Counted from the stretch's first letter, positions 2,754 to 46,600 are shown. The stretch: 64,000 nt of DNA from Naegleria gruberi (GCA_000004985.1 GG738916.1); one strand, 5' to 3'. Notes: generated by a model from the sequence alone, not told the origin. Program-made: numbers and translations.

Positions 2754-2803
2754 NNNNNNNNNNNNNNNNNNNNNNNNNNNNNNNNNNNNNNNNNNNNNNN
2801 NNN
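2754..2803. other. Assembly gap (50 N)
   Basis: Run of N. Confidence 1.
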
Positions 2804-26500: not shown

Positions 26501-29500
26501 CAAACCAAAGTATCAGTTGCCATTGTTCCATTACAAATTGGAATTTCACAAAATTGGCCTGTCCAATTGGAATTGCAAAAACATTCATCTGGATTAATAC
26601 AAATACCGTTGCTGTTGCACACTGTGTCATTGGTAGCTAACGTTCCATTACAAACTGGGACTTGACAAAATTGTCCACCCCATTCTGATGTACAAACACA
26701 TTCATCTGGTTGAATACATATTCCATTGCCATTACATACAGTTTCGTTGGTGGCTTCAGTACCATTACATATTGGAATTTCACAAAATTGACCTGTCCAA
26801 TTGTAATTGCAAAGACATTCGTCAGGTTGAATACATGCTCCATTGTTGTTACAAACAAAAGGATCAGTTGCGAGTGTAGAGTTGCATTTTGGAATTTCAC
26901 ATAAATCACCTCCCCATGTTGAATTGCAGTTACAAATATTTGGATTAATACATTCACCATTACCACTACAAACTGATAAATCTGTACCAGCTGTACCATT
27001 ACAAAGTGGTGTTTCACACAATTTACCAGTCCAATTTGTATTACAAATGCATTCATCTGGTTGAACACATTCGCCATTACCATTACAAACAGAATAGTTG
27101 TTAGCTAAAGTTCCATTACAAATTGGAATTTCACAAAATTCTCCACTATATGTCGAATTACACTGACAAAGATTTGGACCAACACATGCACCGTTACCGC
27201 TACATACAGATTCGTTAGTGGCTTCTGTTCCATTACAAATTGGAATTTCACAAAATTGCCCAGTCCAATTGGAATTACATAAACATTCATCTGGGCGAAT
27301 GCAAAGACCATTTCCACTACACGCCACTGTTTCATTGGTGGCTAATGTCGCATTGCTATCATTGGTAGCTTTAATACCTCCACAGATTGGAATTTCACAA
27401 TAAGGACCTGTCCAATTTGAATTACAAAAACATTCATCTGGCTGAATACATTCTCCATTACCATTACAAACAAAAGGATCAGTTGCATTTGTTCCATTAC
27501 ATACTGGAATTTCACAAAATTGACCAGTCCAATTCGAGTTACATTCACAAATATTTGGACTAATACATTTACCATGTCCTGCACAAACAGATGTATCATT
27601 AGCAAGAGTATCATTACATATTGGAATTTCACAAAATTCTCCACTCCAAGTTGAATTACATTCACAAACATCTGGACTAATACAAATACCATTACCACTA
27701 CATACTGTTGAGTTTGCATCCTCTAGGGTTACATTACAGAGAGGAAATTGACAAAATGGACCATAATACCCTGATTGACAATCGCAAGTGTCCAGTGAAG
27801 TACATATTCCATGAGAAGTACAAACTGTAGAATTTGTACTTTCAATTGAATTACAAGTTGTCATATTACAATAAGTTCCAAAGTATCCACTTGTACAAAC
27901 ACAATTATCACTTGAAATGCACAATCCATGAGAATTGCAAACAGTAGTTTCATTTCCTGAAATGTTAAAGCAAGTTGGAATTTCACATTGATATCCTGAA
28001 TAGCCATCATTACATACACATGTATCGTTTGCAACACATGTTCCGTTTTGATTATTACAAACCATTGAATCATTTCCCAATATTGAAAAACAAATTGGAA
28101 TTTCACAATATTGACCTGTAAATCCTGATTCACAATCACAAGTTTCTGGGCTAGTGCAATTACCAACACCATTACAAACACTTGAACTATTTGAAAGTGT
28201 ATTGTTACAAATAGAAAGCTCACAACACACTCCAGCATATCCCTGACAAATACAAGGATCATTAGTATCAATCAGAGCAAATGATGTTAAATGGGATGTT
28301 TCACAAATAACAGTACTAGAATTCACCATTTTAGTTCTTACACCATCAGATTTCCATGTATTTTCAATCCTATCCAAATACATACATGTTAAATTGGATG
28401 ATTTGGTTATGTTTTGTGAGTGTAATGGAATGATCAAAGTGATTGGCTTGTTCAATTGTTTTACAATAACTTCTTTACCACTATCACTCAGTAAAGAAAC
28501 AGAAACTATAGCACTTTTAACTTTAGGTGTTATCTTATCAATATAAATTGATGAAAATAGAATTAATGAGCTATCACTGTTCAATCCACTTGTTGAAATC
28601 AAATCACTACTCAATGTGGAAGGAAGTGAAATTTGAATACCCATATTAGTATTCGAATAACTATAAGAAACATAAATATTCTTCGAATTTAAATCACCCA
28701 ATTGATTTGCAACTTGATAATTGTAGGATGTGACATTTGTTGAAACAGCTATTGAACAATAAGATCCAATCCAACCGTAATTGCAAACACAAGTTTCTGG
28801 ACTAGTACAATTTCCAACACCATTACAAACCTTCTTACTTGTAGCAAGTGTACCATTACAAATTGGTGTTTGACAATATTGACCTCCCCAAGTTGAATTA
28901 CATTTACATTCATTAAAACCATTACAGATACCATTGCCATTACAAACTGATTTTGAATTGGATCGTGTTCCATTGCATGTATTCACACAACTCATAGCTC
29001 CATTGAAATCTTGTGTAAATTGAAGAGTTGTGCCACATTCAATGATCTTTCTAATCCTGTTATTGGATGTGTCTGCAATTAATATTTCATTATTATTTGG
29101 AGAAACAAAAACACCTTTAGGAGAATTAAGTCGACTCGCAATTGACAAACCACCATCACCACCAAATGATCCATCGCTACTACTTCCAGCAATGGTTGTA
29201 ATAGTTCCATTCACAAATATCTTTCTAATTCGATGATTCAATGTGTCAGCAATGTAAATTTCACCACTCTGTGAAACATGGACGCCATATGGTGAATTCA
29301 ATTGAGAGTTTATAGCCAAGCCACCATCACCACCAAATGATGCTCGACCAGTTCCTGCTACTGTTGTAATCAGTCCGTTAACAAATATCTTTCTAATTCT
29401 ATGGTTCAATGTATCAGCAATATAAATTTCACCATTCTGAGAAATATGAACACCATTTGGAGAGTTCAATGGTGAAAGAACAGCAAATCCACCGTCACCA

Positions 29501-30189
29501 CCAAATGATGCTCTACCAGTTCCAGCAATAGTTGAAATTACACCATAACTATTAATCTTTCTGATTCTATGGTTCAATGTGTCAGCAATGTAAATTTCAC
29601 CATTCTGAGAAATAGAGAGACCATTTGGTGAATTTAATTTTGCTCTACTAGCTAAACCACCATCACCACTAAAACCATCACAATCAGAATGTTCATTACA
29701 GTTTTGCTTTCCAGAAACAATGGTCACCAAATAACTTGACAGAGAAACGGAAAGAATTCTATGATTTAACACATCTGTCATGTATAATTCATTTCTAAAT
29801 AAAACAGCCATGGTTGGTTTAAACTTGTTACCTGTTTGCATATTAATTGGTAATGTGAAAATTGTACCATTCATAAATATTTTTCTAATTCTTCCATTTT
29901 GTGTATCGACAATAAGTGTTTCAGTGTAATTATTATTGTTGAGAGGTGAAATACTTATTGAATAGGAGGGAGAATTTAATTGGGCATTGATAGCCAAACC
30001 ACCATCTCCTTCCATACCTGCTGCTGCCATTAATCCACTTCCTGCAATTGTTGAAATATATGATAATTTAGTGGTGGAACTTGTAGTTGCTGCTGTTGTT
30101 GTTGTGGAAAAGATTGTCATCATCATCAACAAGAATAATAACAGGACAATGTTGTTTGCGCTTCTCATTTCATCCAGAGCTCTCTTCAT
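23566..30189 (-). CDS. Intact giant type-I membrane protein (2207 aa): signal peptide, 6 NHL repeats, 2 EGF, a GAIN/GPS-like region, about 45 EGF-like repeats, TM, short cytoplasmic tail
   Basis: It is a single uninterrupted ORF, MKRALDEMRSANNIVLLLFLLMMMTIFSTTTT... NHL repeat consensus GxGxxxFGGDGGxAxxSxLNSPxGVxxSxxGEIYIADTLNHRIRKI occurs six times. The GPS-like motif lies at aa 598-641. The EGF-like units have the form CNGT(L/S)ATDxxVCxGNGxCxxPDxCxCNSxWxGxxCEIP. The C-terminal TM helix is VVTVLVIIGVALLLIIIIVLLSFL, followed by ...KALKEYNM and a stop. Confidence 0.85.
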   Translation of the reverse strand: MKRALDEMRSANNIVLLLFLLMMMTIFSTTTTAATTSSTTKLSYISTIAGSGLMAAAGMEGDGGLAINAQLNSPSYSISISPLNNNNYTETLIVDTQNGRIRKIFMNGTIFTLPINMQTGNKFKPTMAVLFRNELYMTDVLNHRILSVSLSSYLVTIVSGKQNCNEHSDCDGFSGDGGLASRAKLNSPNGLSISQNGEIYIADTLNHRIRKINSYGVISTIAGTGRASFGGDGGFAVLSPLNSPNGVHISQNGEIYIADTLNHRIRKIFVNGLITTVAGTGRASFGGDGGLAINSQLNSPYGVHVSQSGEIYIADTLNHRIRKIFVNGTITTIAGSSSDGSFGGDGGLSIASRLNSPKGVFVSPNNNEILIADTSNNRIRKIIECGTTLQFTQDFNGAMSCVNTCNGTRSNSKSVCNGNGICNGFNECKCNSTWGGQYCQTPICNGTLATSKKVCNGVGNCTSPETCVCNYGWIGSYCSIAVSTNVTSYNYQVANQLGDLNSKNIYVSYSYSNTNMGIQISLPSTLSSDLISTSGLNSDSSLILFSSIYIDKITPKVKSAIVSVSLLSDSGKEVIVKQLNKPITLIIPLHSQNITKSSNLTCMYLDRIENTWKSDGVRTKMVNSSTVICETSHLTSFALIDTNDPCICQGYAGVCCELSICNNTLSNSSSVCNGVGNCTSPETCDCESGFTGQYCEIPICFSILGNDSMVCNNQNGTCVANDTCVCNDGYSGYQCEIPTCFNISGNETTVCNSHGLCISSDNCVCTSGYFGTYCNMTTCNSIESTNSTVCTSHGICTSLDTCDCQSGYYGPFCQFPLCNVTLEDANSTVCSGNGICISPDVCECNSTWSGEFCEIPICNDTLANDTSVCAGHGKCISPNICECNSNWTGQFCEIPVCNGTNATDPFVCNGNGECIQPDECFCNSNWTGPYCEIPICGGIKATNDSNATLATNETVACSGNGLCIRPDECLCNSNWTGQFCEIPICNGTEATNESVCSGNGACVGPNLCQCNSTYSGEFCEIPICNGTLANNYSVCNGNGECVQPDECICNTNWTGKLCETPLCNGTAGTDLSVCSGNGECINPNICNCNSTWGGDLCEIPKCNSTLATDPFVCNNNGACIQPDECLCNYNWTGQFCEIPICNGTEATNETVCNGNGICIQPDECVCTSEWGGQFCQVPVCNGTLATNDTVCNSNGICINPDECFCNSNWTGQFCEIPICNGTMATDTLVCNGNGTCIQPDICNCTSEWGGQYCEIPFCNGILANNISVCEGHGNCISPNICECNSTYGGEFCESPKCNSTLATDPYVCNGNGECIQPDECICNTNWTGQFCQTPLCNGTAGTDLSVCSGNGICVSPDTCECNSTWGGYLCEIPICNGTLATNESVCNTNGICINPDQCLCNSNWTGQFCQTPLCNGTSATDVLVCSGNGQCVSPNICECNSSWSGELCEIPICNGTLAIYEFVCSGNGACVGPDVCECNSTWGGQYCESPKCNSTLATDPYVCNGNGECFQPNECICNSNWTGPFCEIPICNGIKATNDSNSTLTTNETVVCSGNGLCIRPDECLCNSNWAGQYCEIPICGDVLATNETACNGNGKCVQPNECICDSNWTDQLCETPICSGIISTNISVCSRKGDCIGANLCICLTGWGGEDCSTPICNNILSTNATTNTDSNGTIVSNNTLVCSGHGECTSPNQCNCNLNWGGKQCEIPKCQGILANNEAVCNSRGKCVNENQCQCNEMWGGQFCEIPFCNGTLATDSNVCNSLGVCVGPNQCKCLSGWGGKLCTIPSCNGILAFDENEVCIAKSNACSGNGKCIDLNRCKCEKGWTGPLCSTPTCNGTSATELTVCNGFGVCVAPDKCNCYRDWGGEFCTVPTCNGTLATDPTVCNSRGICIENDECSCNSWGGKLCATPTCNGIVATDPNVCNSSGVCVDFDKCECFSGYGDAFCGTLSCNSILSTHINVEGAVCSGRGLCLGPNKCICQPNWGGFMCGFPKCFDISGDKKEVCSGHGDCIAVDTCKCYQGYMDYDCSSVVPDKNCGDSRRGASFWDVLVEGWDLIGDMASGAASIGSSIGNVIESLGTGFIDLFGGVIPNIADIFSSIPKLMEKILNFLISNAEKFINFILNLWTTFVEFIEWAVIYFPKIFSGITLQQVVTVLVIIGVALLLIIIIVLLSFLSPYITIALQFVKGVSSALASSEKALKEYNM
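24150..28260 (-). repeat. Tandem array of about 45 EGF-like Cys-rich coding repeats (~93-100 nt each) within gene 23566-30189
   Basis: A periodic C-x-G-x-x-C...C-x-C-x-x-x-W-x-G-x-x-C pattern repeats. The opposite strand yields many spurious His/Val-rich ORFs. Confidence 0.8.
28267..28308 (-). other. GPS (GPCR-proteolysis-site)-like motif VICETSHLTSFALID at aa 628-641 of the 2207-aa protein; putative autoproteolytic site HL|T
   Basis: The sequence tctagtactgttatttgtgaaacatcccatttaacatcatttgctctgattgat translates to SSTVICETSHLTSFALID. The upstream context LTCMYLDRIENTWKSDGVRTKMVNSSTV resembles the canonical GPS layout Cys ... Trp-x-x-x-Gly ... Cys-x-x-x-HL(S/T)xFA. Confidence 0.5.
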
Positions 30190-33869: not shown

Positions 33870-35332
33870 TTATTCAACTGTTGATGTTTCTTTTTGATAC
33901 ATTGTCCAAAATCTATTCAAAACCCTTTTGATAATTTCCATTTTTGGTTTTACAACAGTGGAAATTGACAATGATACAGAATCTTGAAATTTTCTAATTC
34001 TATCATTTTCATTTGCTTCCTTTTCTTCAGTTACTGAATAGATTACAATTCCAATAACAAGAATCACCAATGAAACAACATCAAACATACTCAATTGAGA
34101 TTCCAATGCTTCTCCTGCAATGAATTTCAATAAAAAGAAGAGATTTGAAAGAGCTAATCTGGAAACAGCTGCAATGACAGCTAGTGTTGAACTTCCATAT
34201 TGGAAAACATATAACTTTCCAAAATTAGAAAATTCCAAATATGTAAAACTTACTTCTAAGGTTGCGTAGGTAAAATTAAAGAATATATCTGCCCAGAAAA
34301 CAAGTGGAAATGATTCACATCTATCAGGTGATGATCCACCAACAATTGAATTAATTCCAACACTACATTTAATCCCATTCCAAATATAGGTATTTAAATC
34401 AGACCATGAAATTGAAACTGTTTGTGGAATTGGTACAAAAACAAATACAGATGTAATAATACCAAATAAAACTTGCCAAACTGAAACCCAATAATTAACT
34501 AACCATACATCCAATTTTTCCTTTTTTAAACATTTTTCCTTATATACATTACTTGCTGCTTGTGGAATATTGGAACAAAATAAAAGTAAAATCCACAACC
34601 AATCCATAGATGATGATGAAGCAATACTAGATGCATCTTCCTGTGCAAAAACTGGATATAAATTAATTATCAAACCACATAAAACAAGTAAAACTCCTGA
34701 AAAGTGAAAAGTATTGTAACGAGTGTGGAGGAATGTGAAACTCATGATAATGTTAATGAGAATTACGGATTGACTGAGCATGGTATTGAGACTACCACTG
34801 ACATAGGCTGCTGGAATGGTTTGGAGTGTGTTTGTGGCATTATCTAGGAAGGCCATGATTACATACTTAATTTGGGAAGTACTATTTTTGGAAATAGTTG
34901 TAAAAATTAATAGTTTGAATTTGATACATACTCTCATTTTTTTTGTAATTTTACCTCTCCATATTTGAAATACAACAATTGGAGCCAAAATTACAACATA
35001 CACAACATTTACCAAATTTGTCAACATGTAACTGTTACTAATTCTACCAAATATGTTACATCTTTCACTACTTACATGTAATTTTGAATTTCATATGTTA
35101 ATCTCACATATAAAACAGTATCACAACTTCTAGCAATGACCATAATACATGTCAATGCATAAACAATTAGAAATCTCCACCATTTAGATTTCTTACTTGG
35201 CAAATTAACATCTTTTTGTGCTTCATCACTGCTTGTTTGCATGTTATCTTGATTATCAATATTGTCATCATCTTGAATTGAAGTGTTAATTGAGAAATCC
35301 TTTGCTAAAAGTGCAGTTTCTTCTTGAGCCAT
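33870..35332 (-). CDS. CRT-like (chloroquine-resistance-transporter family, DMT superfamily) membrane transporter: exon 1 35076-35332, intron 35032-35075 (44 nt, GTAAGT..AACAG), exon 2 33870-35031
   Basis: About 10 TM helices. The C-terminal block KFIAGEALESQLSMFDVVSLVILVIGIVIYS aligns with the PfCRT block [30 protein letters not shown]. Exon 1 (MAQEETALLAKDF...RLTYEIQNY) joins exon 2 (I-YMLTNLVNVVYVVILAPIV...) in phase 2 with no stop. Confidence 0.6.
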
Positions 35333-35993: not shown

Positions 35994-38644
35994 ATGACTA
36001 GAGTATCACCCTATATTGTCGATCATCAACAAGAACAACCGAATGCTGAAAAGAATGATGATGGTGGTGTTGGAGCAGCACAATTATTTTCTGATACCGC
36101 CGATAATGCTTCTTCACTAATGAGTAGTAGTGAATATTCGACAACTCATAAAAGTGTTTCCTTCTTTACTTCTATTAAATTTTGTTTAATATTGGCAAAG
36201 TTTATGGTTGTCTTGTTGAGTGTATCAACATTGTCTATTATTTGGATTAGTAGTTTTGCACCAACTGTTTCAGAATTAAGTAGTAAAGTGAGAGATTCTG
36301 AAATTAATGTAATTATTAAGAATACTGTCAATACATTGAGTGAGATTGCTCATGTTGGAAAGATAATGAGACAACAAGTTTTAAGTTATGGATATGGAAT
36401 ATCAGATTATTCAAAGGTTGAAGTTAGTATGTATGGAAATTATAAGGTAAGACTTGTTGTTGTTTTTAATTGTCAATTAATTGTCATTTATTGTAAACAA
36501 CTAACATGTCATCATCATGAAACAACTTACATGTATAGACCTCTCAAGAATTATATGGTGGTGTAACTATTGCTAGTTATATTGGAGATCCATATAATAA
36601 TTGTTTTGGAACAATGACATGGACATCTACTGCATCAGGAGCTGCCACATTTAACATTACACCAACTGATTTTCAAATCTTTTATTGTGCTAGTATGTCA
36701 GATAATGAAAGATGTATTAGAGATTCAACTCCAAATGAGGTGTTAGGATTCTATGATATGAAAATACTTATTGAATCATGTAATAATTATCCAAATGATG
36801 TGGTATTTACACCTAGTTTTGCTGATCCTATACTTCCTCAATATACTTGGGTCAGTATGCTTTCATGTGTACCAAGAACAACACCTGATGCATATGGAAA
36901 TAAGTTTTCTCTCTATTATGGAATGGATTTGACAATTACTTCCATTTCTGATTTTTTGAAGAATAAGACTAGATCAATATATGGAGCTAGAGGATTCTTT
37001 ATAGAAACCAAGTCAAGTTACCTAATTGCAGTTGATAGTGATATTCCCACATCTAAATCTCTATCAGATGGAACTATTCAAAGATTTACCATTTACACAA
37101 TTGATGATAAGGAAGTAGTCATGTTTTCACAAACTATTCTCTCATCAATTGGATCATTAACAACATTAACATGTAACTCTCTCAATATTATATCAGATTC
37201 ATCTCATTACATTCTTTCATATAGACTTTGTACAGATACTCATATTGATTGGGTTTTAGTTTATGTTGTTCCTCAATGGAATTACATTTCTTCTACAATT
37301 ATTGCTGTCATTATTGCCATGATTGGTAGTATTTTAATTATTTGTATTGGTATCATTGTTGCTACATTTGTTTCTCTCAAGATTGTTAAACCATTTTATA
37401 GTTTAATTTGAAAGTGTAGCGAATATGAATTTGGATGAAATGTCAATAAGAGAATCTGGTTTCTCTGAAGTTAAACAACTTCAAAAACAGTTCATTTTCA
37501 TGGTTAATCGTATCAAGTTATACAAGTCATTCATACCTTCACATTTGTTATCTGAAATTGAGAATAATTCTGCAGAAAATTTACCAATGATGGTAAGAGA
37601 TGACAAGACAGCAAGTCTAGCAGAAGAATCAACACAAGTGGGAGAAGAACAATCCTCTATTACAGGTTCAAGATTTTCACATGATGATAGCCATAGACAG
37701 AGTTTTAAGAAAATCAAAAGAAGAATGGAAAATATCAATAGATTTGCATTATATCTTGAAACTAAATCTGTAACACTATTAATGACCAAACTAAGAGGAT
37801 TGAATGAGTGGGTTGAACATCTTCTACCAAGTGAAACTGTCATATTATTAACTGATGTTTTTGATATCATGAATGGCATTTCTAGACTTGCTAGAGGTGC
37901 TCATTTGAGTCTTTTTGAAAATGATTCAATCATGTTGAGTTTTAATGCAGTTGGTCAAGAAGAATCAAATCATCAAGAGAAGGCACTTAATGCTTCTAGA
38001 ATGCTCGTTGAAAAACTTTCAAATGTAAAGTCTACAAAATGGAGGAATCATCAACTTTTGAGTAAGAGACCAAAACTTGCAGATGCACTCAAATTCAATT
38101 TTGCCATCACTACACAAGAGAGTGTATGTGGTAATATTGGAACCAAAGATTCAAAATACTTTACAATTATGGGAAGTGGAAAGAATAATTTGGAAAACAT
38201 GTTACACTCTTCTAGCTCATTAGATGTTCAAATAGTTTGTTCAGATAATGTTAAATTAGTTTGTGAAAATAGTTTCATGATGAGATTACTCTTTCCATTC
38301 ACTTTCTTAAATGATAGCTCACTATCTAATAGACAAGATGAATCAATCACAAGAAATGGATATGTCTATCAAGTAGGTTCAGCACTTGCCACCTCCAATG
38401 ATGATGAATGGATGTAAGTAACTTAAATTTAAATCAAAACTAACTCATTTTAAACAATAGGTATGAACTTGAAGATCAACAAAAGAAGAATATTTGGAAT
38501 TTATATAATGAAGGAGCACAACTCTTCCAACAACAAGCATATGAGAGTGCATTGGAAAAGTTTGAAAAGTTCAGTAATGAAAATCCAAATGATAAAGCTG
38601 TTCGACACATGATTTCCCTTTGTAGCATTCCATCAACCAAATGA
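35994..38644 (+). CDS. Receptor-type protein with a cytoplasmic degenerate (pseudo) class-III nucleotidyl-cyclase homology domain. Exons: 35994-36446, 36539-37411 (join to the next exon unresolved), 37425-38413, 38461-38644; introns 36447-36538 and 38414-38460
   Basis: The N-terminal signal-anchor TM is FCLILAKFMVVLLSVSTLSIIWISSF, followed by a ~330-aa extracellular region and a second TM (ISSTIIAVIIAMIGSILIICIGIIVATFV). The cytoplasmic part then begins ...KQLQKQFIFMVNRIKLYKSFIPSHLLSEIE, a cyclase-linker-like LPxxVAxxL helix. A CHD-like region follows, colinear with a class-III cyclase domain; the alignment and catalytic-residue substitutions are given in the finding at 37343-38417. The last intron (GTAAGT...AATAG, 47 nt) joins ...DDEW|M YELEDQQKKNIWNLYNEGAQLF...STK before a TGA stop. 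Confidence 0.55.
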
Positions 38645-38668: not shown

Positions 38669-39424
38669 TTACTTCTTTTTTTTAGAAGGAGGATCATCAT
38701 CTGAAGAAGAAGGAGGTGGTGCTATTGTTGTTGGAACTACCAATACCTTTCCTTTTCTCAATCTCTTCAATTGAGAGGGAAGTCCTGGCATTACTTGCTC
38801 TGAAAAAGCAACACAATGATTCTGTTCAACATGTGTTTTGAGTTCATTCATGCTAAATACCTCATAAACATTTTCCTTACAAACTTTACAATATTTAACA
38901 TTTGGAGAGACAACTTTAAAGGCATTTGATTTAAGTGGACATTCATATTCCCATTCACAATTCTCAATGAATTGACTATCCTTATCAATTCTAAACACCT
39001 TATCAATGGATGTATTGATCACTCTCTCTTTCAAAAGTGGTAATTCATTTGGAAATTTGTTTTGCAAGTGAGTCACTCTTCTTCTCATGACATGCATCCA
39101 ATTCTTTATATTCAAAGTTTGTGAATAATTTGGAAAATAATGGAGAACGATAGGTTTCCAAATGACTTGTTGAACAACATTACACGATTCATCCTTCTTA
39201 TAATTATCCTTGATAGCAATCAATTGAGCATCAATATTCTTCTTACTCAAATCTTTCTTTCTCTTTGCAATGGCTTCAACTTTTTCCACTGTCAAGTTGA
39301 AGAATACTTCCAACATGTTTTTATCACATCTTGCAAAGTTGTTCAAATCTCCAAGTGGAAGAAAAGCACCAACTGCAATGAGCATATCCTTGTTCAAAGA
39401 GGTTCCGTTCAGTGTGGATGCCAT
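38669..39424 (-). CDS. Hypothetical protein with an N-terminal F-box-like motif and a Cys/His-rich C-terminal region (251 aa)
   Basis: ORF from ATG to TAA. It starts MASTLNGTSLNKDMLIAVGAFLPLGDLNNFARCDKNMLEVF (F-box-like), and later has CEWEYECPL...YCKVCKENVYEVFSMNELKTHVEQNHC, a possible Zn-binding C2H2-like arrangement. Low certainty. Confidence 0.5.
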   Translation of the reverse strand: MASTLNGTSLNKDMLIAVGAFLPLGDLNNFARCDKNMLEVFFNLTVEKVEAIAKRKKDLSKKNIDAQLIAIKDNYKKDESCNVVQQVIWKPIVLHYFPNYSQTLNIKNWMHVMRRRVTHLQNKFPNELPLLKERVINTSIDKVFRIDKDSQFIENCEWEYECPLKSNAFKVVSPNVKYCKVCKENVYEVFSMNELKTHVEQNHCVAFSEQVMPGLPSQLKRLRKGKVLVVPTTIAPPPSSSDDDPPSKKKK

Positions 39425-39558: not shown

Positions 39559-41250
39559 TCATTCCACCAATGAAGCAATAAAATCATTTTGATCCACTAA
39601 TCGTTGTTGTAAATCTAATAAATCTTGTAAACATAAAGTTTCAACATTTTCAAATAATTCAATTGGAATATTTGTTTCATCTTTTTCAATAATATTTAAT
39701 AAATCTCTTCTCATAACATTTATATTTGGTAAATTTAATTCCAATGGAGCAGATAGACTAATATAGGAATCAATCATTTTCAAAGCCTTTTCTTTTCTAT
39801 CCTTTTTAGGTAATTTTTTAAATTTTTGAATATCAGTCCAACATAATACTGGTTCAGGTGTATAACTTCTACGTGCAAAATCTAGAAATATTGAATATGT
39901 TTTTGGATCTTTAAGTAATATTTCAGTTGTACTAAATGAAGTAATATTTCTATTTTTACTATTTATAGAAAATAATCCACCATTTCTAATAAAATCCAAT
40001 CTAATATCATAACATACAGGTAATACAACACATACAAATATTTCAAATACACTTCCTGCTAATAAAACTAATAAGTAAGGTACAAAATAATCAACTAATT
40101 CAGCAATTATAGGAATACTTCCCAAAACAATAAATAAAATTACTAAAAATGGTTGAACAATAACATGTACAAGTGTTTCCTTTTTAATATTCCATGTATC
40201 TCTATCTGATCTAATACATAATACTAATGTAATCCATTCAACTATATAATAAACTAATGCTTCTGCTATAATTATACCAAACATGGCACTAGATCCAATA
40301 CATCCATATGAGAATTGAAAAAATCCAGGAATTACAAAGAAATGAGGTTCATTTTCATTTTTAGTATTGGAATGAATAATTTCATCAATTCCACCTAAAA
40401 TTATCCAAAATAGAATTTGACTAAGAAAACATAAAAAATAGGCTGAAATTACAAATGTATGACTTGTCATGAATTGATAAAATTTAAATATTCTCCATTC
40501 TTTTTTTGTTATTAATCTCTTTTCTATATTATTTTCATTATTTTCATTATTTAATTCTATATTAGTATTTTCATTATTATTTTCATTGATATTTAATTCT
40601 ATATTATTTTCATCATTTAATTCTATAGAATTAGAAATATGAATACTATTATTTAATTCAATTTCTTTTATATTATTTTTTAATTCCATATTAGTAAGTG
40701 ATATTCCATTTTTAGAATTAATAATTAAATAATTATCATTATATATTCTAGTTTTAAATAAATTTAATTTATAACTAAAATATAATTTTAAACATCTACA
40801 AGTGACAGGTAAACTAGTTAATGGACCAGCAACAAAGAAACTCAAAGTATATAAACTACATGGAAATACCTTTCTTCCAATAATTATTCGAAGTGAAAAT
40901 ATGACAACAAAAAAACAAGATGAAAGCATTGTTAAAAACATGTGTGAAATACTTCTAGCTTGAATATTACCTGATTTACGTTTCCAAATAATTGAAATTG
41001 ATGTGAAAAATAATAAAAAAAGATAAAATATTAGAAAGGCTAACATTAATGCGAATGATACATTAGTATCGGGACACATTTGATTTTCAATACTGGGATT
41101 TAATTCTCTACTTAGACCTATTGTAAATAATATTGGATGACAATAAGTTGTTGTCGTGTTATTAGTAGTGGAATTAGTAGAATTACTATTCGAAAGTGCA
41201 ATAATATTACTATTCGAAAGTAGTTGTTGTGCGATAGTTTCCAGCATCAT
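39559..41250 (-). CDS. Seven-TM protein with a C-terminal RGS (regulator of G-protein signalling) domain (563 aa), and an Asn/Glu-rich low-complexity insert
   Basis: About 7 hydrophobic helices lie between aa 60-420, with a NENNNENTNIELNNENNENN insert in a loop. The C-terminal region FLDFARRSYTPEPVLCWTDIQKFKK...KALKMIDSYISLSAPLELNLPNINVMRRDLLNII matches the RGS-box pattern FxxFLxxExSxENLxFW...AxxIYxxYIxxxAxxEVNL. Confidence 0.6.
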   Translation of the reverse strand: MMLETIAQQLLSNSNIIALSNSNSTNSTTNNTTTTYCHPILFTIGLSRELNPSIENQMCPDTNVSFALMLAFLIFYLFLLFFTSISIIWKRKSGNIQARSISHMFLTMLSSCFFVVIFSLRIIIGRKVFPCSLYTLSFFVAGPLTSLPVTCRCLKLYFSYKLNLFKTRIYNDNYLIINSKNGISLTNMELKNNIKEIELNNSIHISNSIELNDENNIELNINENNNENTNIELNNENNENNIEKRLITKKEWRIFKFYQFMTSHTFVISAYFLCFLSQILFWIILGGIDEIIHSNTKNENEPHFFVIPGFFQFSYGCIGSSAMFGIIIAEALVYYIVEWITLVLCIRSDRDTWNIKKETLVHVIVQPFLVILFIVLGSIPIIAELVDYFVPYLLVLLAGSVFEIFVCVVLPVCYDIRLDFIRNGGLFSINSKNRNITSFSTTEILLKDPKTYSIFLDFARRSYTPEPVLCWTDIQKFKKLPKKDRKEKALKMIDSYISLSAPLELNLPNINVMRRDLLNIIEKDETNIPIELFENVETLCLQDLLDLQQRLVDQNDFIASLVE

Positions 41251-43036: not shown

Positions 43037-43609
43037 TTATTTTCTTTCTTTTGAATTTGGTTGAATTGAAACATTTTCATCTTGTTGTTTACGTTTCCTC
43101 TTTTTATTACTATTATTATCAACGTCAAGATTACCATTTATATCAATTTCATTCAATTGATCATTTTCATTCATGATATCAATAAATTGAATGGATAACA
43201 TTTTTTCAATTAAATCATCTCTCATACAAATAGGTAATTGTTTAAATTTTTGTAATAAATTTAAATATTTATAATTTTCAATTGCAAAATTAATTAAATT
43301 AATTCTTAATTGTTTAAATAAATCCAAATCAACATCATTATATAAACTTTTAATTAAATCATAAAAAGATTCAATTGTAATATCTATATTATTATATACT
43401 AATTCATATAATTCATTCATTTCATGTTCATGTGATTTTTTTAATACTTGTATTACTATATTTGGTGGAATTGGTTTTATTATTCCATAACAATATTCAA
43501 TTATATATTTAACTTCTATTGGATAGATATCTTGTTGACTTGTTTCACTTGATTTACACCAATTACCTGTAAAATAGGCTGAAAATATGTTGATGATGAT
43601 GATAATATT
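43037..43609 (-). CDS. C-terminal fragment of an unknown gene; the 5' part is lost in the 19-kb gap
   Basis: The ORF is open from the gap edge to TAA at 43037: ...FSAYFTGNWCKSSETSQQDIYPIEVKYIIEYCYGIIKPIPPNIVIQVLKKSHEHEMNELYELVYNNIDITIESFYDLIKSLYN...KKRKRKQQDENVSIQPNSKERK. The basic C-terminal tail is NLS-like. Confidence 0.4.
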   Translation of the reverse strand, partial: NIIIIINIFSAYFTGNWCKSSETSQQDIYPIEVKYIIEYCYGIIKPIPPNIVIQVLKKSHEHEMNELYELVYNNIDITIESFYDLIKSLYNDVDLDLFKQLRINLINFAIENYKYLNLLQKFKQLPICMRDDLIEKMLSIQFIDIMNENDQLNEIDINGNLDVDNNSNKKRKRKQQDENVSIQPNSKERK

Positions 43610-46600
43610 NNNNNNNNNNNNNNNNNNNNNNNNNNNNNNNNNNNNNNNNNNNNNNNNNNNNNNNNNNNNNNNNNNNNNNNNNNNNNNNNNNNNNNNNNNN
43701 NNNNNNNNNNNNNNNNNNNNNNNNNNNNNNNNNNNNNNNNNNNNNNNNNNNNNNNNNNNNNNNNNNNNNNNNNNNNNNNNNNNNNNNNNNNNNNNNNNNN
43801 NNNNNNNNNNNNNNNNNNNNNNNNNNNNNNNNNNNNNNNNNNNNNNNNNNNNNNNNNNNNNNNNNNNNNNNNNNNNNNNNNNNNNNNNNNNNNNNNNNNN
43901 NNNNNNNNNNNNNNNNNNNNNNNNNNNNNNNNNNNNNNNNNNNNNNNNNNNNNNNNNNNNNNNNNNNNNNNNNNNNNNNNNNNNNNNNNNNNNNNNNNNN
44001 NNNNNNNNNNNNNNNNNNNNNNNNNNNNNNNNNNNNNNNNNNNNNNNNNNNNNNNNNNNNNNNNNNNNNNNNNNNNNNNNNNNNNNNNNNNNNNNNNNNN
44101 NNNNNNNNNNNNNNNNNNNNNNNNNNNNNNNNNNNNNNNNNNNNNNNNNNNNNNNNNNNNNNNNNNNNNNNNNNNNNNNNNNNNNNNNNNNNNNNNNNNN
44201 NNNNNNNNNNNNNNNNNNNNNNNNNNNNNNNNNNNNNNNNNNNNNNNNNNNNNNNNNNNNNNNNNNNNNNNNNNNNNNNNNNNNNNNNNNNNNNNNNNNN
44301 NNNNNNNNNNNNNNNNNNNNNNNNNNNNNNNNNNNNNNNNNNNNNNNNNNNNNNNNNNNNNNNNNNNNNNNNNNNNNNNNNNNNNNNNNNNNNNNNNNNN
44401 NNNNNNNNNNNNNNNNNNNNNNNNNNNNNNNNNNNNNNNNNNNNNNNNNNNNNNNNNNNNNNNNNNNNNNNNNNNNNNNNNNNNNNNNNNNNNNNNNNNN
44501 NNNNNNNNNNNNNNNNNNNNNNNNNNNNNNNNNNNNNNNNNNNNNNNNNNNNNNNNNNNNNNNNNNNNNNNNNNNNNNNNNNNNNNNNNNNNNNNNNNNN
44601 NNNNNNNNNNNNNNNNNNNNNNNNNNNNNNNNNNNNNNNNNNNNNNNNNNNNNNNNNNNNNNNNNNNNNNNNNNNNNNNNNNNNNNNNNNNNNNNNNNNN
44701 NNNNNNNNNNNNNNNNNNNNNNNNNNNNNNNNNNNNNNNNNNNNNNNNNNNNNNNNNNNNNNNNNNNNNNNNNNNNNNNNNNNNNNNNNNNNNNNNNNNN
44801 NNNNNNNNNNNNNNNNNNNNNNNNNNNNNNNNNNNNNNNNNNNNNNNNNNNNNNNNNNNNNNNNNNNNNNNNNNNNNNNNNNNNNNNNNNNNNNNNNNNN
44901 NNNNNNNNNNNNNNNNNNNNNNNNNNNNNNNNNNNNNNNNNNNNNNNNNNNNNNNNNNNNNNNNNNNNNNNNNNNNNNNNNNNNNNNNNNNNNNNNNNNN
45001 NNNNNNNNNNNNNNNNNNNNNNNNNNNNNNNNNNNNNNNNNNNNNNNNNNNNNNNNNNNNNNNNNNNNNNNNNNNNNNNNNNNNNNNNNNNNNNNNNNNN
45101 NNNNNNNNNNNNNNNNNNNNNNNNNNNNNNNNNNNNNNNNNNNNNNNNNNNNNNNNNNNNNNNNNNNNNNNNNNNNNNNNNNNNNNNNNNNNNNNNNNNN
45201 NNNNNNNNNNNNNNNNNNNNNNNNNNNNNNNNNNNNNNNNNNNNNNNNNNNNNNNNNNNNNNNNNNNNNNNNNNNNNNNNNNNNNNNNNNNNNNNNNNNN
45301 NNNNNNNNNNNNNNNNNNNNNNNNNNNNNNNNNNNNNNNNNNNNNNNNNNNNNNNNNNNNNNNNNNNNNNNNNNNNNNNNNNNNNNNNNNNNNNNNNNNN
45401 NNNNNNNNNNNNNNNNNNNNNNNNNNNNNNNNNNNNNNNNNNNNNNNNNNNNNNNNNNNNNNNNNNNNNNNNNNNNNNNNNNNNNNNNNNNNNNNNNNNN
45501 NNNNNNNNNNNNNNNNNNNNNNNNNNNNNNNNNNNNNNNNNNNNNNNNNNNNNNNNNNNNNNNNNNNNNNNNNNNNNNNNNNNNNNNNNNNNNNNNNNNN
45601 NNNNNNNNNNNNNNNNNNNNNNNNNNNNNNNNNNNNNNNNNNNNNNNNNNNNNNNNNNNNNNNNNNNNNNNNNNNNNNNNNNNNNNNNNNNNNNNNNNNN
45701 NNNNNNNNNNNNNNNNNNNNNNNNNNNNNNNNNNNNNNNNNNNNNNNNNNNNNNNNNNNNNNNNNNNNNNNNNNNNNNNNNNNNNNNNNNNNNNNNNNNN
45801 NNNNNNNNNNNNNNNNNNNNNNNNNNNNNNNNNNNNNNNNNNNNNNNNNNNNNNNNNNNNNNNNNNNNNNNNNNNNNNNNNNNNNNNNNNNNNNNNNNNN
45901 NNNNNNNNNNNNNNNNNNNNNNNNNNNNNNNNNNNNNNNNNNNNNNNNNNNNNNNNNNNNNNNNNNNNNNNNNNNNNNNNNNNNNNNNNNNNNNNNNNNN
46001 NNNNNNNNNNNNNNNNNNNNNNNNNNNNNNNNNNNNNNNNNNNNNNNNNNNNNNNNNNNNNNNNNNNNNNNNNNNNNNNNNNNNNNNNNNNNNNNNNNNN
46101 NNNNNNNNNNNNNNNNNNNNNNNNNNNNNNNNNNNNNNNNNNNNNNNNNNNNNNNNNNNNNNNNNNNNNNNNNNNNNNNNNNNNNNNNNNNNNNNNNNNN
46201 NNNNNNNNNNNNNNNNNNNNNNNNNNNNNNNNNNNNNNNNNNNNNNNNNNNNNNNNNNNNNNNNNNNNNNNNNNNNNNNNNNNNNNNNNNNNNNNNNNNN
46301 NNNNNNNNNNNNNNNNNNNNNNNNNNNNNNNNNNNNNNNNNNNNNNNNNNNNNNNNNNNNNNNNNNNNNNNNNNNNNNNNNNNNNNNNNNNNNNNNNNNN
46401 NNNNNNNNNNNNNNNNNNNNNNNNNNNNNNNNNNNNNNNNNNNNNNNNNNNNNNNNNNNNNNNNNNNNNNNNNNNNNNNNNNNNNNNNNNNNNNNNNNNN
46501 NNNNNNNNNNNNNNNNNNNNNNNNNNNNNNNNNNNNNNNNNNNNNNNNNNNNNNNNNNNNNNNNNNNNNNNNNNNNNNNNNNNNNNNNNNNNNNNNNNNN

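What the first reader, a model, noticed from the sequence alone, without database searches (positions are those of the whole stretch)
35994..38644. Receptor-like protein whose cytoplasmic domain is a catalytically degenerate nucleotidyl-cyclase homology domain
The layout is a signal-anchor, a ~330-aa extracellular domain, a TM, a cyclase-type linker helix (FIPSHLLSEIE resembles the LPxxVAxxL helix of receptor guanylyl/adenylyl cyclases), then a class-III CHD-like fold. The metal-binding Asp of the FADIVGF strand, and the transition-state Arg (NTASRM becomes NNLENM here), are substituted, although other fold landmarks are retained (GNIGTKDSKYFTIMGSG, DVQIVCSDNV). That predicts a pseudo-cyclase, which might act as a regulatory or dimerisation partner rather than as an enzyme. 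The gene model has three clean introns, but the join between the TM exon (stop at 37409-37411) and the cytoplasmic exon (ATG 37425) is unresolved. All three frames contain stops in 37404-37419.
Basis: partly seen in the sequence, partly recalled or inferred. Interest (0 to 1): 0.6.

Follow-up and report, generated by a model that had tools for sequence, protein, structure and literature searches.

The report
Frameshifted dead-cyclase receptor gene in Naegleria
This Naegleria gruberi gene encodes a bacterial-style surface sensor whose internal cyclase domain has lost the residues needed to make cAMP or cGMP, it belongs to a large and apparently undescribed family of such dead-cyclase receptors in Naegleria and its relatives, and this copy is also broken by an 8-base deletion.

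Summary
Window 35994-38644 (+) is the Naegleria gruberi gene annotated only as "predicted protein" (P0001). It has two introns, not three.

The architecture is TM1, double-Cache ectodomain, TM2, HAMP-like module, cyclase-transducer helix (FIPSHLL), disordered Ser-rich linker, class III cyclase-homology domain (CHD), one TPR-like repeat.

- **CHD homology:** it fails Pfam PF00211 on the single sequence. A family profile hits CyaB at E=2e-11, and the AlphaFold model hits class III cyclases at E=1e-10.
- **Catalytic residues:** four of six are lost. Asp1 is Lys, the substrate Lys is Leu, Asp/Thr is Tyr and the transition-state Arg is Met. Asp2 and Asn remain.
- **Family:** the same degeneracy runs through the relatives aligned, drawn from 158 clusters (E<1e-30) across Heterolobosea. 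One paralogue pair gives CHD dN/dS of 0.19.
- **The unresolved join:** it is neither an intron nor a 1-bp error. The window lacks 8 nt (CAATTATT in N. lovaniensis) inside HAMP helix AS1, which 106 of 107 relatives keep. The database model hides this with an ad hoc 52-nt intron and omits the last exon.

Most likely this is a recently frameshifted, or mis-assembled, member of a non-catalytic receptor family. Output by protein-protein interaction is inferred, not shown.

The parts
35994..36446 (+). Exon 1 (151 codons): N-terminal cytoplasmic tail, TM1 and the start of the ectodomain.
   Evidence: The translation is identical to P0001 and colinear with P0002-P0011.
36447..36538 (+). Intron 1, 92 nt, GTAAGA...TATAG.
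   Evidence: Removing it gives ...GNYK|TSQELYGG, as in P0001, with no gap against relatives.
36539..38413 (+). Exon 2. It holds the rest of the ectodomain, TM2, the HAMP-like module, the transducer helix, the linker and the cyclase-homology domain. It is interrupted by a frameshift at 37406-37409.
37403..37411 (+). Frameshift point, TTA ATT TGA. The upstream frame ends ...KPFYSLI*. The downstream frame (TTT GAA AGT..., from 37407) reads FESVANMNLDEM. Eight nucleotides are missing relative to the family.
   Evidence: All 10 close relatives read KPFxxLIxxFE(S/W/M)V (KPFWNLIELFDSL in P0011). 106 of 107 wider relatives have 12 residues from Pro to Val, and the window has 10. N. lovaniensis DNA is TTA ATT CAA TTA TTC GAG against the window's TTA ATT T GAA.
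38414..38460 (+). Intron 2, 47 nt, GTAAGT...AATAG.
   Evidence: Removing it gives DDEWM|YELEDQQKK, which matches the conserved DEWMYEL motif (W at 0.99 in the family). The database model P0001 omits it and stops at DDEWM.
38461..38644 (+). Exon 3: the TPR-like tail and the TGA stop (38642-38644).
36162..36257 (+). TM1 (signal anchor), residues 57-88.
   Evidence: Kyte-Doolittle 19-residue windows above 1.8 start at residues 55-72. The SIK..LI...LSV..LS.IW motif is conserved.
36258..37285 (+). Extracellular double-Cache (dCache) fold sensor domain, residues 89-400. It spans intron 1.
   Evidence: AlphaFold model pLDDT 75.9, pTM 0.76. Foldseek against PDB returns dCache ligand-binding domains of chemoreceptors and histidine kinases: PctD 7prq 5.4e-9, TlpQ, Tlp3, mmHK1S-Z3. 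There is no sequence-level hit in Pfam or PDB.
37286..37378 (+). TM2, residues 401-431.
   Evidence: Hydropathy reaches 3.1. Conserved in the family.
37379..37523 (+). HAMP-like module (KIVKPFYSLI/FESVANMNLDEMSIRESGFSEVKQLQKQFIFMVNRIKLY), broken in its first helix by the 8-nt deficit.
   Evidence: The family profile's top PDB hit is the NarQ HAMP, aligned end to end at residues 176-228, but only at E=0.08. hhalign to the Af1503 HAMP gives E=0.0046 but probability only 7.6%, in register. The Pro and Glu hallmarks are 100% and 98% conserved. Pfam HAMP gives no hit.
37524..37562 (+). Cyclase-transducer-element-like helix, KSFIPSHLLSEIE.
   Evidence: In the family F is 96% and P 100% conserved. 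The same F(I/V)Pxxx(L) motif lies about 27 residues before strand beta1 in the catalytically intact relative P0111.
37563..37739 (+). Low-complexity Ser- and charge-rich linker, inserted between the transducer helix and the CHD.
   Evidence: pLDDT is below 50 for residues 55-109 of the model. Its length and sequence vary among relatives. It is absent from canonical P0111.
37740..38384 (+). Class III cyclase-homology domain, catalytically degenerate.
37788..37790 (+). Lys at the position of metal-binding Asp1 (MTKLRGLN against FSDIRGFT).
   Evidence: HMMER alignments to CyaB and Cya2. Among the 146 aligned stretches (about 128 covering this column) this column is mostly K/R/H/Y/L/Q/F.
37911..37913 (+). 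Leu at the position of the substrate-defining Lys/Glu.
37923..37925 (+). Retained Asp at the metal-binding Asp2 position (FENDSIM).
   Evidence: It is D in only 44 of about 128 aligned stretches covering this column, and S/N/E/G/K/Q in most of the rest.
38157..38159 (+). Tyr at the position of the second substrate-defining residue (Asp or Thr in adenylyl cyclases).
38187..38189 (+). Retained Asn of the transition-state Asn/Arg pair.
   Evidence: Invariant among the Naegleria-clade members.
38199..38201 (+). Met at the position of the transition-state Arg (NNLENM against VNLASR).
   Evidence: This column is L/M/I in 113 of about 123 aligned stretches covering it.
38400..38641 (+). Conserved DEWMYEL motif plus one TPR-like repeat. 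It spans intron 2.
   Evidence: The tail profile hits consensus TPR proteins (2.4e-9, inflated by repeats) and an SRP72 TPR (8e-7). Pfam TPR_2 is weak, E=0.016-0.07. W345, D390 and A376 are 0.99, 0.98 and 0.93 conserved.
37401..37452 (+). The 52-nt 'intron' used by the database gene model P0001 to bridge the frameshift. I judge it not to be real.
   Evidence: P0001 reads KPFY|KSGFSEVK, deleting about 19 conserved HAMP residues. Its donor GTTTAA differs from the two supported introns. All relatives are colinear through this stretch.

Best explanation
Window 35994-38644 (+) is a Naegleria gruberi gene for a type-II-anchored, presumably dimeric, receptor.

**Architecture.** TM1, extracellular double-Cache sensor, TM2, HAMP-like module, cyclase-transducer helix, disordered Ser-rich linker, class III cyclase-homology domain, one TPR-like repeat.

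**Origin.** It descends from the Cache/HAMP receptor adenylyl cyclases of Discoba. It belongs to a large heterolobosean branch in which the cyclase domain has lost the first metal-binding Asp, the substrate-defining residues and the transition-state Arg. It therefore cannot make cAMP or cGMP.

**How the family most likely works (inferred).** Ligand binding to the dCache domain is transmitted through HAMP and the transducer helix to a non-catalytic CHD dimer. The conformation of that dimer, together with the strongly conserved C-terminal DEWMYEL/TPR module and the probably phosphorylatable linker, controls binding of cytoplasmic partners. Alternatively, the protein forms dead heterodimers with catalytically intact paralogues and so damps their output.

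**This copy.** It carries an 8-nt deletion inside HAMP helix AS1. The reading frame ends 7 residues after the conserved Pro (KPFYSLI*), and the whole cytoplasmic region is left out of frame. Nothing else in the gene has decayed. It is therefore most likely a very recent pseudogene or null allele (about 0.6). Less likely, it is an intact gene with a cloning or assembly error (about 0.3).
For: **Identity**
- P0001, 'predicted protein [Naegleria gruberi]', is 97% identical.

**Fold of the cytoplasmic domain**
- The family profile against PDB gives CyaB at 2e-11, Cya2 at 2.4e-9 and CyaC at 1.3e-7.
- The AlphaFold CHD core has pLDDT above 90.
- The top Foldseek PDB hits (50 listed) are all class III cyclases, E=1e-10, TM up to 0.81.
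- Distant family members pass PF00211: P0060 at 25.1 bits, P0087 at 22.5 and P0146 at 41.3, against a cut-off of 21.9.

**Degeneracy**
- Residue-level alignments give K, L, D, Y, N, M at the six catalytic positions.
- In 146 aligned stretches from family members, Asp1 is mostly K/R/H/Y/L/Q/F and Arg is L/M/I.
- Only the bottom-ranked P0111 (Willaertia) has all six canonical residues, and it scores 7.4e-20 against PF00211. P0146 and P0087 also keep an Asp at the Asp1 column, but both lack the Arg.

**Ectodomain**
- AlphaFold and Foldseek give dCache ligand-binding domains.

**HAMP, transducer helix and TPR**
-.

**Family size and spread**
- 158 clusters at E<1e-30.
- Members come from N. gruberi, N. 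lovaniensis, N. fowleri, Willaertia, Percolomonas and Pharyngomonas.

**Selection**
- The paralogue pair P0006/P0008 gives dN/dS 0.19 over 246 CHD codons and 0.21 overall.
- Long intact ORFs are kept across deep heterolobosean splits.

**Deletion**
- A two-column gap unique to the window.
- DNA comparison shows CAATTATT missing between TTAATT and the F codon, next to a TTAATT/TTATT near-repeat.
- The window protein deviates at only 6 of 119 highly conserved positions, against 0-5 for close relatives.

**Precedent**
- Expanded protist receptor-cyclase families carry many pseudogenes (Trichomonas, PMC2914791, from its title and abstract; trypanosomatids, PMC7719234).
Against: - No enzymatic, expression or read-level data exist here.
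- Inactivity is inferred from alignment. Asp2 and Asn are retained, and many relatives (not this protein) have an acidic residue two positions after the lost Asp1.
- Pfam PF00211, HAMP and dCache models do not detect the domains in this protein.
- HAMP support is weak: E=0.08 against PDB, and hhalign probability only 7.6%.
- Whether the 8-nt deficit exists in the organism could not be checked. No independent copy of the locus was found, and the scaffold has several assembly gaps.
- The dN/dS estimate rests on 24 substitutions in one paralogue pair that also shows gene conversion.
- No interaction partner or ligand is known.
Confidence: 0.7

Rival explanations
1. The gene is intact in the organism, and the 8-nt deficit is a cloning, sequencing or assembly artefact, or it exists in only one haplotype. 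The real product would be an 839-aa full-length dCache-HAMP-pseudo-cyclase receptor.
For: - Both frames are otherwise perfectly open, and the protein keeps every family-invariant residue.
- The window is draft sequence with five N-runs, including a 19-kb gap.
- The missing bases lie next to a short near-repeat (TTAATT / TTATT), which is prone to slippage in vivo and in clones alike.
Against: - By general knowledge of Sanger assemblies, base-calling errors are typically 1-bp indels, not 8 bp.
- The public annotation was built on the same frameshifted sequence.
- No second copy of the locus was found to compare.
Confidence: 0.3
2. The frame break is bridged in the mRNA. Either the 52-nt GT..AG intron of the database model (37401-37452) or one of the reader's 70-76-nt non-canonical introns is real, giving a receptor without a normal HAMP.
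For: - The 52-nt segment has GT and AG ends and restores the frame.
Against: - It removes about 19 residues that are conserved and colinear in every relative, including the AS1 helix and connector.
- Its donor GTTTAA is unlike the two supported introns (GTAAGA, GTAAGT).
- A single 8-nt deletion explains both the 2-residue gap and the frame change.
Confidence: 0.04
3. The two ORFs are expressed as separate products, or are joined by translational recoding. One route is gene fission into a sensor-only membrane protein and a soluble pseudo-cyclase starting at ATG 37425. The other is a +1 ribosomal frameshift at AUU UGA A.
For: - An ATG lies 14 nt after the stop.
- AUU-UGA-A superficially resembles stop-codon-stimulated +1 sites such as RF2 CUU UGA C (my own knowledge).
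- The downstream ORF is intact.
Against: - By general knowledge, reinitiation after a 441-codon ORF is very inefficient in eukaryotes.
- No relative out of more than 100 is split or frameshifted here.
- The +1 product would lack 3 AS1 residues.
- tRNA-Ile re-pairing on UUU is poor (general knowledge).
- No promoter or transcript evidence is available.
Confidence: 0.03
4. The domain is still an active nucleotidyl cyclase, or another nucleotidyl-transfer enzyme, that uses non-canonical catalytic residues.
For: - Asp2 and the Asn are kept.
- Many relatives have Asp or Glu two residues after the lost Asp1 (IHLDGL, IHIEGL).
- Automated databases label relatives 'guanylate cyclase domain-containing' or 'class 3 adenylate cyclase'.
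- Some mycobacterial cyclases tolerate non-canonical substrate-defining residues (my own knowledge).
Against: - The window protein has Lys and Arg, not acids, at both candidate positions (TKLRG).
- The transition-state Arg is hydrophobic in nearly the whole family.
- The substrate Lys/Glu and Asp/Thr positions are both lost.
- By established knowledge of class III cyclases, two metal-binding Asp residues and the Arg are required in every characterised enzyme.
Confidence: 0.05

Closest known systems
Cache/HAMP receptor-type class III adenylyl cyclases of Discoba and bacteria. Examples: the 'bacterial-type adenylate cyclase' with Cache in Naegleria noted by Upadhyay et al. 2016 (PMC4822843), the NCIII + HAMP + Cache1 subfamily of Euglena and N. 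gruberi in Ebenezer et al. 2019 (PMC6366073), and the catalytically intact Willaertia magna protein P0111.
   Same: - The same order of modules: TM, dCache, TM, HAMP, transducer helix, CHD, TPR-like tail.
- P0111's ectodomain matches the family profile, and its FVPVKVL helix and C-terminal TPR-like region are present.
- Homologous CHD fold.
   Different: - Four of the six catalytic residues are replaced.
- A 50-90-residue disordered linker separates the transducer helix from the CHD.
- Pfam models for Cache, HAMP and the cyclase domain all miss the protein.
Pseudomonas aeruginosa CyaB catalytic domain (PDB 3r5g) and Synechocystis Cya2 (2w01).
   Same: - They are the best sequence-profile and fold matches: E=2e-11 and 2.4e-9, with Foldseek TM 0.81 and 0.75 normalised to the target.
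- Shared core motifs: the G of GFT, the GD strand (here ND), GN.G, and the N of the Asn/Arg pair.
   Different: - They are active homodimeric cyclases with the full catalytic set.
- Only 15-18% identical.
Degenerate half-sites of pseudo-heterodimeric cyclases (mammalian membrane AC C1/C2, soluble guanylyl cyclase alpha/beta). This entry rests on my own knowledge of the field.
   Same: - A CHD that has lost part of the catalytic set but is kept as a structural and regulatory partner in a dimer.
   Different: - In those enzymes the two halves complement each other. One supplies both Asp residues, the other Lys/Asp/Asn/Arg, so one site works.
- Here both the Asp1 side and the Lys/Arg side are lost in the same chain.
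- Neither a homodimer nor a heterodimer with a canonical chain could therefore form a complete site.
Pseudogenised members of expanded protist receptor-cyclase families: Trichomonas TMACs (PMC2914791) and trypanosomatid RACs (PMC7719234). Also Leishmania RAC-B, which I recall as a non-active negative regulator of RAC-A (Sanchez et al. 1995).
   Same: - Lineage-specific expansion of receptor cyclases with frequent gene disablement.
- A possible dominant-negative role for an inactive paralogue.
   Different: - Those families use different ectodomains (periplasmic-binding-protein-like in trypanosomatids).
- Their catalytic motifs are canonical in the intact members.
- Here the loss of catalytic residues is fixed across a whole conserved family, and this copy's frameshift comes on top of that.
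Cache-HAMP receptors without enzymatic output that signal by protein-protein contact (Cache_heme-HAMP receptor of Pseudomonas azotoformans, bioRxiv 10.64898/2026.05.25.727664; abstract only).
   Same: - An extracytoplasmic Cache sensor plus HAMP whose output is binding to a partner rather than catalysis. This is an analogy for the proposed mechanism.
   Different: - It is bacterial.
- It has no cyclase-homology domain and no TPR tail.
- Its partner, a Ser/Thr kinase, is known, whereas none is known here.

Membership tests
Class III nucleotidyl cyclase (catalytically competent enzyme) | Cyclase-homology-domain fold. | tested here: met
   The AlphaFold model has a core pLDDT above 90. Foldseek PDB top hits are all class III cyclases, E=1e-10. 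The family profile against PDB gives CyaB at 2e-11.
Class III nucleotidyl cyclase (catalytically competent enzyme) | Pfam PF00211 match above the gathering score (21.9 bits). | tested here: not met
   No hit at E<=1 for the window protein. Only 3 of 11 close relatives match, best E=0.042. Distant members P0060, P0087 and P0146 do pass.
Class III nucleotidyl cyclase (catalytically competent enzyme) | Two metal-binding Asp residues. | tested here: not met
   Asp1 is Lys (37788-90). Asp2 is retained (37923-25). Asp1 is absent from almost all of the 146 aligned stretches. The exceptions are distant P0111, P0146 and P0087.
Class III nucleotidyl cyclase (catalytically competent enzyme) | Substrate-defining pair (Lys + Asp/Thr for ATP; Glu + Cys/Ser for GTP). 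| tested here: not met
   Leu and Tyr occupy these positions in the window protein. The family has Ser/Asn and Asn/Ser/Phe/Gln.
Class III nucleotidyl cyclase (catalytically competent enzyme) | Transition-state Asn and Arg. | tested here: not met
   Asn is retained (38187-89). Arg is replaced by Met, and by L/M/I in 113 of about 123 aligned stretches covering that column.
Class III nucleotidyl cyclase (catalytically competent enzyme) | Formation of cAMP or cGMP. | not testable with these tools
   This needs an enzyme assay.
HAMP domain | About 50 residues directly after the last TM helix, with Pro at the start of helix AS1 and Glu at the start of AS2. | tested here: met
   The module starts 1 residue after TM2. 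Pro is 100% and Glu 98% conserved in the family.
HAMP domain | Significant match to HAMP profiles or structures. | tested here: inconclusive
   Pfam HAMP does not match. The top PDB hit of the family profile is the NarQ HAMP, end to end, but at E=0.08. hhalign to Af1503 gives E=0.0046 with probability 7.6%.
HAMP domain | Intact AS1 helix of canonical length. | tested here: not met
   The window has 10 residues from Pro to Val, where 106 of 107 relatives have 12, and the frame is broken there.
dCache (double Cache) extracellular sensor | Long N-terminal helix followed by two PAS-like alpha/beta modules, located between two TM helices. | tested here: met
   The AlphaFold model has helix 5-47 and then two beta-sheet modules. 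The top Foldseek PDB hits (50 listed) are almost all dCache ligand-binding domains or dCache receptors, best 5.4e-9.
dCache (double Cache) extracellular sensor | Match to Pfam dCache or Cache models. | tested here: not met
   No Cache family at E<=1 for the window protein or its 10 close relatives. The ectodomain profile gives no PDB sequence hit. There is a weak MCP-like_PDC_1 hit in distant member P0060.
dCache (double Cache) extracellular sensor | Ligand-binding pocket residues or a known ligand. | not tested
Heterolobosean sensor-HAMP-degenerate-CHD-TPR receptor family (defined here) | Full-length colinear homology including the FIPxHLL helix, the CGNxG strand and the DEWMYEL + TPR tail. 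| tested here: met
   E-values run from 8.3e-208 to 2.3e-70 against N. lovaniensis, N. gruberi and N. fowleri members. All family-invariant residues are present.
TPR repeat | 34-residue helix-turn-helix with the W-x2-Y/L-G/A-x3-Y/F-x6-A-x3-F/Y-x2-A-x4-P pattern. | tested here: met
   The tail profile aligns WxxYNxAxxxYxxxxYxxAxxxFxxxL to consensus TPR (per-repeat i-E of 5-11, summed E=2.4e-9) and to an SRP72 TPR (8e-7). Pfam TPR_2 is below threshold on the single sequence. There is only one repeat.

The most novel reading that the evidence does not exclude
Heterolobosean amoebae keep a large family of membrane receptors in which diverse sensor modules are wired through HAMP and the cyclase transducer helix to a class III cyclase domain that has been turned into a non-catalytic output module. 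The family spans at least 158 clusters at 50% identity.

- The sensor modules seen are dCache here, NIT in P0049, a solute-binding-protein domain in the borderline member P0146 (which still keeps both metal Asp residues and lacks only the Arg), and ankyrin-plus-dCache in P0060.
- The cyclase domain always comes with a conserved DEWMYEL/TPR tail.
- A substantial part of the much-cited count of about 100 Naegleria 'cyclases' would then not make cyclic nucleotides at all. They would instead form a new ligand-to-protein-interaction signalling system.
Probability: 0.5. Interest if true: 0.6.

Novelty: new variant of a known kind. Interest (0 to 1): 0.45.

Why it matters
**Effect on cyclase counts.** Naegleria is repeatedly cited for an exceptional number of adenylyl and guanylyl cyclases: at least 81 in the pangenome paper PMC9928731, and 108 is the figure I recall from the genome paper, which I did not read here. 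Databases label relatives of this protein 'guanylate cyclase domain-containing' or 'class 3 adenylate cyclase'. If a whole conserved branch lacks the catalytic residues, those counts overstate cyclic-nucleotide signalling capacity. A separate, unexplored receptor system would then exist in these amoebae, including the pathogen N. fowleri.

**Effect on Cache domain counts.** Fold-level evidence suggests Cache sensors are more common in Naegleria than the single protein found by sequence models (PMC4822843).

**Effect on annotation.** The public model for this gene hides a frameshift with an invented intron and omits the last exon.

Tried and rejected
- **Pfam on the single protein and on each of 11 relatives.** No PF00211, HAMP or Cache hit passed threshold. 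Homology had to come from profiles and folds.
- **Ectodomain profile against PDB sequences.** Zero hits. Only the fold search identified dCache.
- **Independent copies of the locus, to test the frameshift.** Exact look-ups of the 330-aa ORF, the 265-aa ORF and P0001 found nothing. A gapped DNA pattern across the junction found nothing in metagenome contigs. Look-ups for the N. gruberi paralogues P0003 and P0004 also failed, so dN/dS could only be done on an N. lovaniensis pair.
- **Second word-indexed homologue search, with the cytoplasmic profile.** It returned only 13 proteins and did not help to count N. gruberi members.
- **Synteny with the best N. lovaniensis relative.** The neighbours differ (RIO1, nucleoside hydrolase, CoA-transferase against CRT-like transporter, 7TM-RGS). 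Strict orthology is therefore unproven.
- **Explanations rejected for the junction.**
  - The database's 52-nt intron.
  - A 1-bp error. The protein gap is 2 residues and the DNA deficit 8 nt.
  - +1 recoding and reinitiation. I consider them unlikely but they are not excluded.
- **Literature searches.** Searches for pseudo-cyclases and for Naegleria with HAMP and Cache found no description of this family. The library does not cover subscription journals.

Full report
**What is in the sequence**

The window is AT-rich eukaryotic DNA, about 30% GC, with several assembly gaps. Between 35994 and 38644 on the + strand there are long open frames. Joined by two short GT..AG introns, they encode one protein colinear with a set of Naegleria proteins.

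The nearest database entry is P0001, 'predicted protein [Naegleria gruberi]', at 97% identity. The window is therefore N. gruberi.

The supported gene model:

| Feature | Coordinates | Notes |
|---|---|---|
| Exon 1 | 35994-36446 | |
| Intron 1 | 36447-36538 | GTAAGA..TATAG |
| Exon 2 | 36539-38413 | contains the frameshift |
| Intron 2 | 38414-38460 | GTAAGT..AATAG |
| Exon 3 | 38461-38644 | ends with TGA |

The claim of three clean introns is not supported: there are two.

**The junction**

All ten close relatives read continuously KPFxxLIxxFE(S/W/M)V..M.L(D/E) across the point where the window changes frame (P0011 reads FDSL). The window reads KPFYSLI* in one frame and FESVANMNLDEM in the next. 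The alignment places a gap of exactly two residues there.

Among 107 wider family members that cover this helix, 106 have 12 residues from the conserved Pro to the Val. The window has 10.

At the DNA level N. lovaniensis has TTA ATT CAA TTA TTC GAG where the window has TTA ATT T GAA. Loss of eight bases (CAATTATT), next to a TTAATT/TTATT near-repeat, explains both the 2-residue gap and the frame change as one event.

The public model P0001 bridges the break with a 52-nt GT..AG segment (37401-37452). That deletes about 19 conserved residues, and the model also stops at DDEWM, missing intron 2 and the last exon. I regard both bridges as artefacts of gene modelling.

I could not decide whether the 8-nt deficit exists in the amoeba or only in the assembly. 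No independent copy of the locus was found. The rest of the gene shows no decay: there are no stops in 837 codons, and only 6 of 119 highly conserved positions deviate, against 0-5 in close relatives. If the deletion is real, it is therefore very recent.

**Domain by domain**

- **Transmembrane segments.** Two hydrophobic segments, residues 57-88 and 401-431, flank a 312-residue ectodomain.
- **Ectodomain.** It has no sequence-level match in Pfam or PDB. Its AlphaFold model (pLDDT 75.9, pTM 0.76) has a long N-terminal helix followed by two alpha/beta modules. Foldseek returns almost only double-Cache ligand-binding domains and dCache receptors from chemoreceptors and histidine kinases, such as PctD at 5.4e-9, TlpQ, Tlp3 and mmHK1S-Z3.
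- **HAMP-like module.** Directly after TM2 comes a roughly 50-residue module with the HAMP hallmarks (Pro 100% and Glu 98% conserved). Its family profile has the NarQ HAMP as top PDB hit, aligned end to end, and aligns in register to Af1503. Both matches are statistically weak, at E=0.08 and hhalign probability 7.6%.
- **Transducer helix.** Next is KSFIPSHLLSEIE, with F at 96% and P at 100% in the family. In the catalytically intact Willaertia relative P0111, the same motif (KFVPVKVLENIL) sits about 27 residues before the DIENFT strand.
- **Linker.** In this family a 50-90-residue Ser-rich segment, predicted disordered, is inserted after that helix.

**The cyclase-homology domain**

| Test | Result |
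|---|---|
| Pfam PF00211, window protein | no hit at E<=1 |
| Pfam PF00211, 11 close relatives | 3 match, best E=0.042 |
| phmmer against PDB | CyaB 0.002, Cya2 0.003 |
| Family profile against PDB | CyaB 2e-11, Cya2 2.4e-9, CyaC 1.3e-7 |
| AlphaFold model | CHD core pLDDT above 90 |
| Foldseek against PDB | top hits all class III cyclases, E=1e-10, TM 0.81 to CyaB |
| Pfam PF00211, distant members | P0060, P0087, P0146 pass |

The alignments map the six canonical catalytic positions as follows:

| Canonical residue | Window residue | Coordinates |
|---|---|---|
| Metal Asp1 | Lys | 37788-90 |
| Substrate Lys/Glu | Leu | 37911-13 |
| Metal Asp2 | Asp (retained) | 37923-25 |
| Substrate Asp/Thr | Tyr | 38157-59 |
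| Transition-state Asn | Asn (retained) | 38187-89 |
| Transition-state Arg | Met | 38199-201 |

Both the Asp1 side and the Lys/Arg side of the site are lost in the same chain. From the known architecture of class III dimers, neither a homodimer nor a heterodimer with a canonical chain could assemble a complete active site.

**It is a family trait**

A profile of the full-length family, scored against 1.84 billion representative proteins, gives 158 clusters at E<1e-30. The best 150 hits were aligned as 146 stretches, not all of which cover every column. In them the Asp1 position is mostly K/R/H/Y/L/Q/F and the Arg position is L/M/I. Only the bottom-ranked P0111 carries all six canonical residues (DIENFT, GD, NFASRLE), and P0146 and P0087 keep an Asp at Asp1 but lack the Arg.

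Named members come from N. gruberi, N. lovaniensis, N. fowleri, Willaertia magna, Percolomonas cosmopolitus and Pharyngomonas kirbyi. Others come from unassigned metagenome contigs. The family is thus at least Heterolobosea-wide.

The degenerate CHD-plus-tail module is combined with different sensors. These are dCache here, NIT in P0049, and ankyrin repeats plus dCache in P0060. P0146 carries a solute-binding-protein domain, but it keeps both metal Asp residues and passes PF00211 at 41.3 bits, so it is a borderline member.

The most conserved cytoplasmic features are the HAMP and transducer residues, a few structural CHD residues (N, H, GN.G, R), and the C-terminal DEWMYEL motif followed by one TPR-like repeat.

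For the N. lovaniensis paralogue pair P0006/P0008, dN/dS is 0.19 over the 246 CHD codons and 0.21 overall. This is consistent with purifying selection on the non-catalytic domain. The estimate rests on few substitutions, and the pair shows gene conversion in TM2 and HAMP.

**How it most likely works**

*Shown:*
- the domain architecture;
- the loss of catalytic residues;
- conservation of the family.

*Inferred:*
- The receptor is a dimer, as HAMP and CHD proteins are.
- A small-molecule ligand binds the dCache module.
- The signal passes through TM2, HAMP and the transducer helix to a CHD dimer that cannot cyclise nucleotides.
- The output is either ligand-dependent binding of cytoplasmic partners, through the CHD surface, the conserved DEWMYEL/TPR tail and the Ser-rich linker, or formation of dead heterodimers with catalytically intact Cache-HAMP cyclases of the same cell.

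As the sequence stands, this copy would yield only TM1-dCache-TM2 plus 10 residues (KIVKPFYSLI), the first 7 of them from the conserved Pro. The best reading is a recent pseudogene or null allele of a functional family (about 0.6), with an assembly or cloning error as the main rival (about 0.3).

**Comparison with what is known**

- Cache-HAMP-cyclase receptors are known in bacteria and have been noted in Euglena and N. gruberi (PMC6366073).
- One Naegleria Cache-cyclase was noted by Upadhyay et al. (PMC4822843).
- Degenerate half-sites are classical in mammalian adenylyl cyclases and soluble guanylyl cyclase (my own knowledge).
- Expanded protist receptor-cyclase families are known to carry many pseudogenes (PMC2914791; PMC7719234).
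- I found no description of a conserved, family-wide catalytically dead branch in Heterolobosea. The searchable library is incomplete.

I therefore rate the finding a new variant of a known kind. It is of moderate interest as a single, probably broken, gene. It would be of higher interest if the family-level reading is confirmed.

Noticed in passing
window 39559-41250 (-): A 563-aa ORF with multiple N-terminal hydrophobic segments and a C-terminal RGS domain (PF00615, 3.1e-8). It looks like the seven-transmembrane RGS proteins described for Naegleria fowleri (PMC9283941). It lies about 900 bp downstream of the receptor gene on the opposite strand.
   Followed up: partly
window 14506-18206 (+) and 23566-30189 (-): Very large ORFs made of teneurin-like EGF repeats. 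The 2207-aa one also has NHL repeats (EGF_Teneurin 3.4e-136, TEN_NHL 2.4e-27). That is a metazoan-looking adhesion architecture in an amoeboflagellate.
   Followed up: no
window 33870-35332 (-): A CRT-like (chloroquine-resistance-transporter-like) membrane transporter gene (PF08627, 3.2e-45). It is apparently split by a short intron between the ORFs 33870-35027 and 35072-35332.
   Followed up: no
window 2754-2803, 4326-5341, 7069-7118, 10148-10642, 43610-62699: Runs of N, which are assembly gaps, including a 19-kb gap. The long 'ORFs' listed across 43037-62855 are artefacts of this gap.
   Followed up: yes
window 37401-37452 and 38414-38644, compared with protein P0001: The public N. gruberi gene model hides the frameshift with an unsupported 52-nt intron and ends at DDEWM. 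It misses the real last intron and the 61-codon TPR-like exon.
   Followed up: yes
L003 and L004 (N. lovaniensis PYSW02000011.1, about 20 kb apart, opposite strands): Paralogues P0006 and P0008 have no differences at all across the 99 codons of TM2, HAMP and the transducer helix. Their ectodomain segment has dS of 0.51. This suggests gene conversion of the transmission module.
   Followed up: partly
proteins P0049, P0146, P0060, P0087 (relatives, not in the window): The CHD-plus-tail module is fused to other sensors. These are a NIT domain (N. lovaniensis), a bacterial solute-binding-protein domain plus C-terminal SAM (Pharyngomonas), and N-terminal ankyrin repeats plus dCache (metagenome contigs of unknown organism). 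The Pharyngomonas protein P0146 keeps both metal Asp residues and is less degenerate than the rest.
   Followed up: partly
window 36258-37285 and relatives: Upadhyay et al. 2016 state that Cache is found in a single Naegleria protein. Fold-level evidence here points to a dCache ectodomain in this gene and, by homology, in its relatives that share the ectodomain. Pfam Cache models miss all of them.
   Followed up: partly
window 38669-39424 (-): A 251-aa ORF immediately downstream on the opposite strand, with a Cys/His-rich middle and a poly-Lys C-terminus. It has no Pfam match.
   Followed up: no
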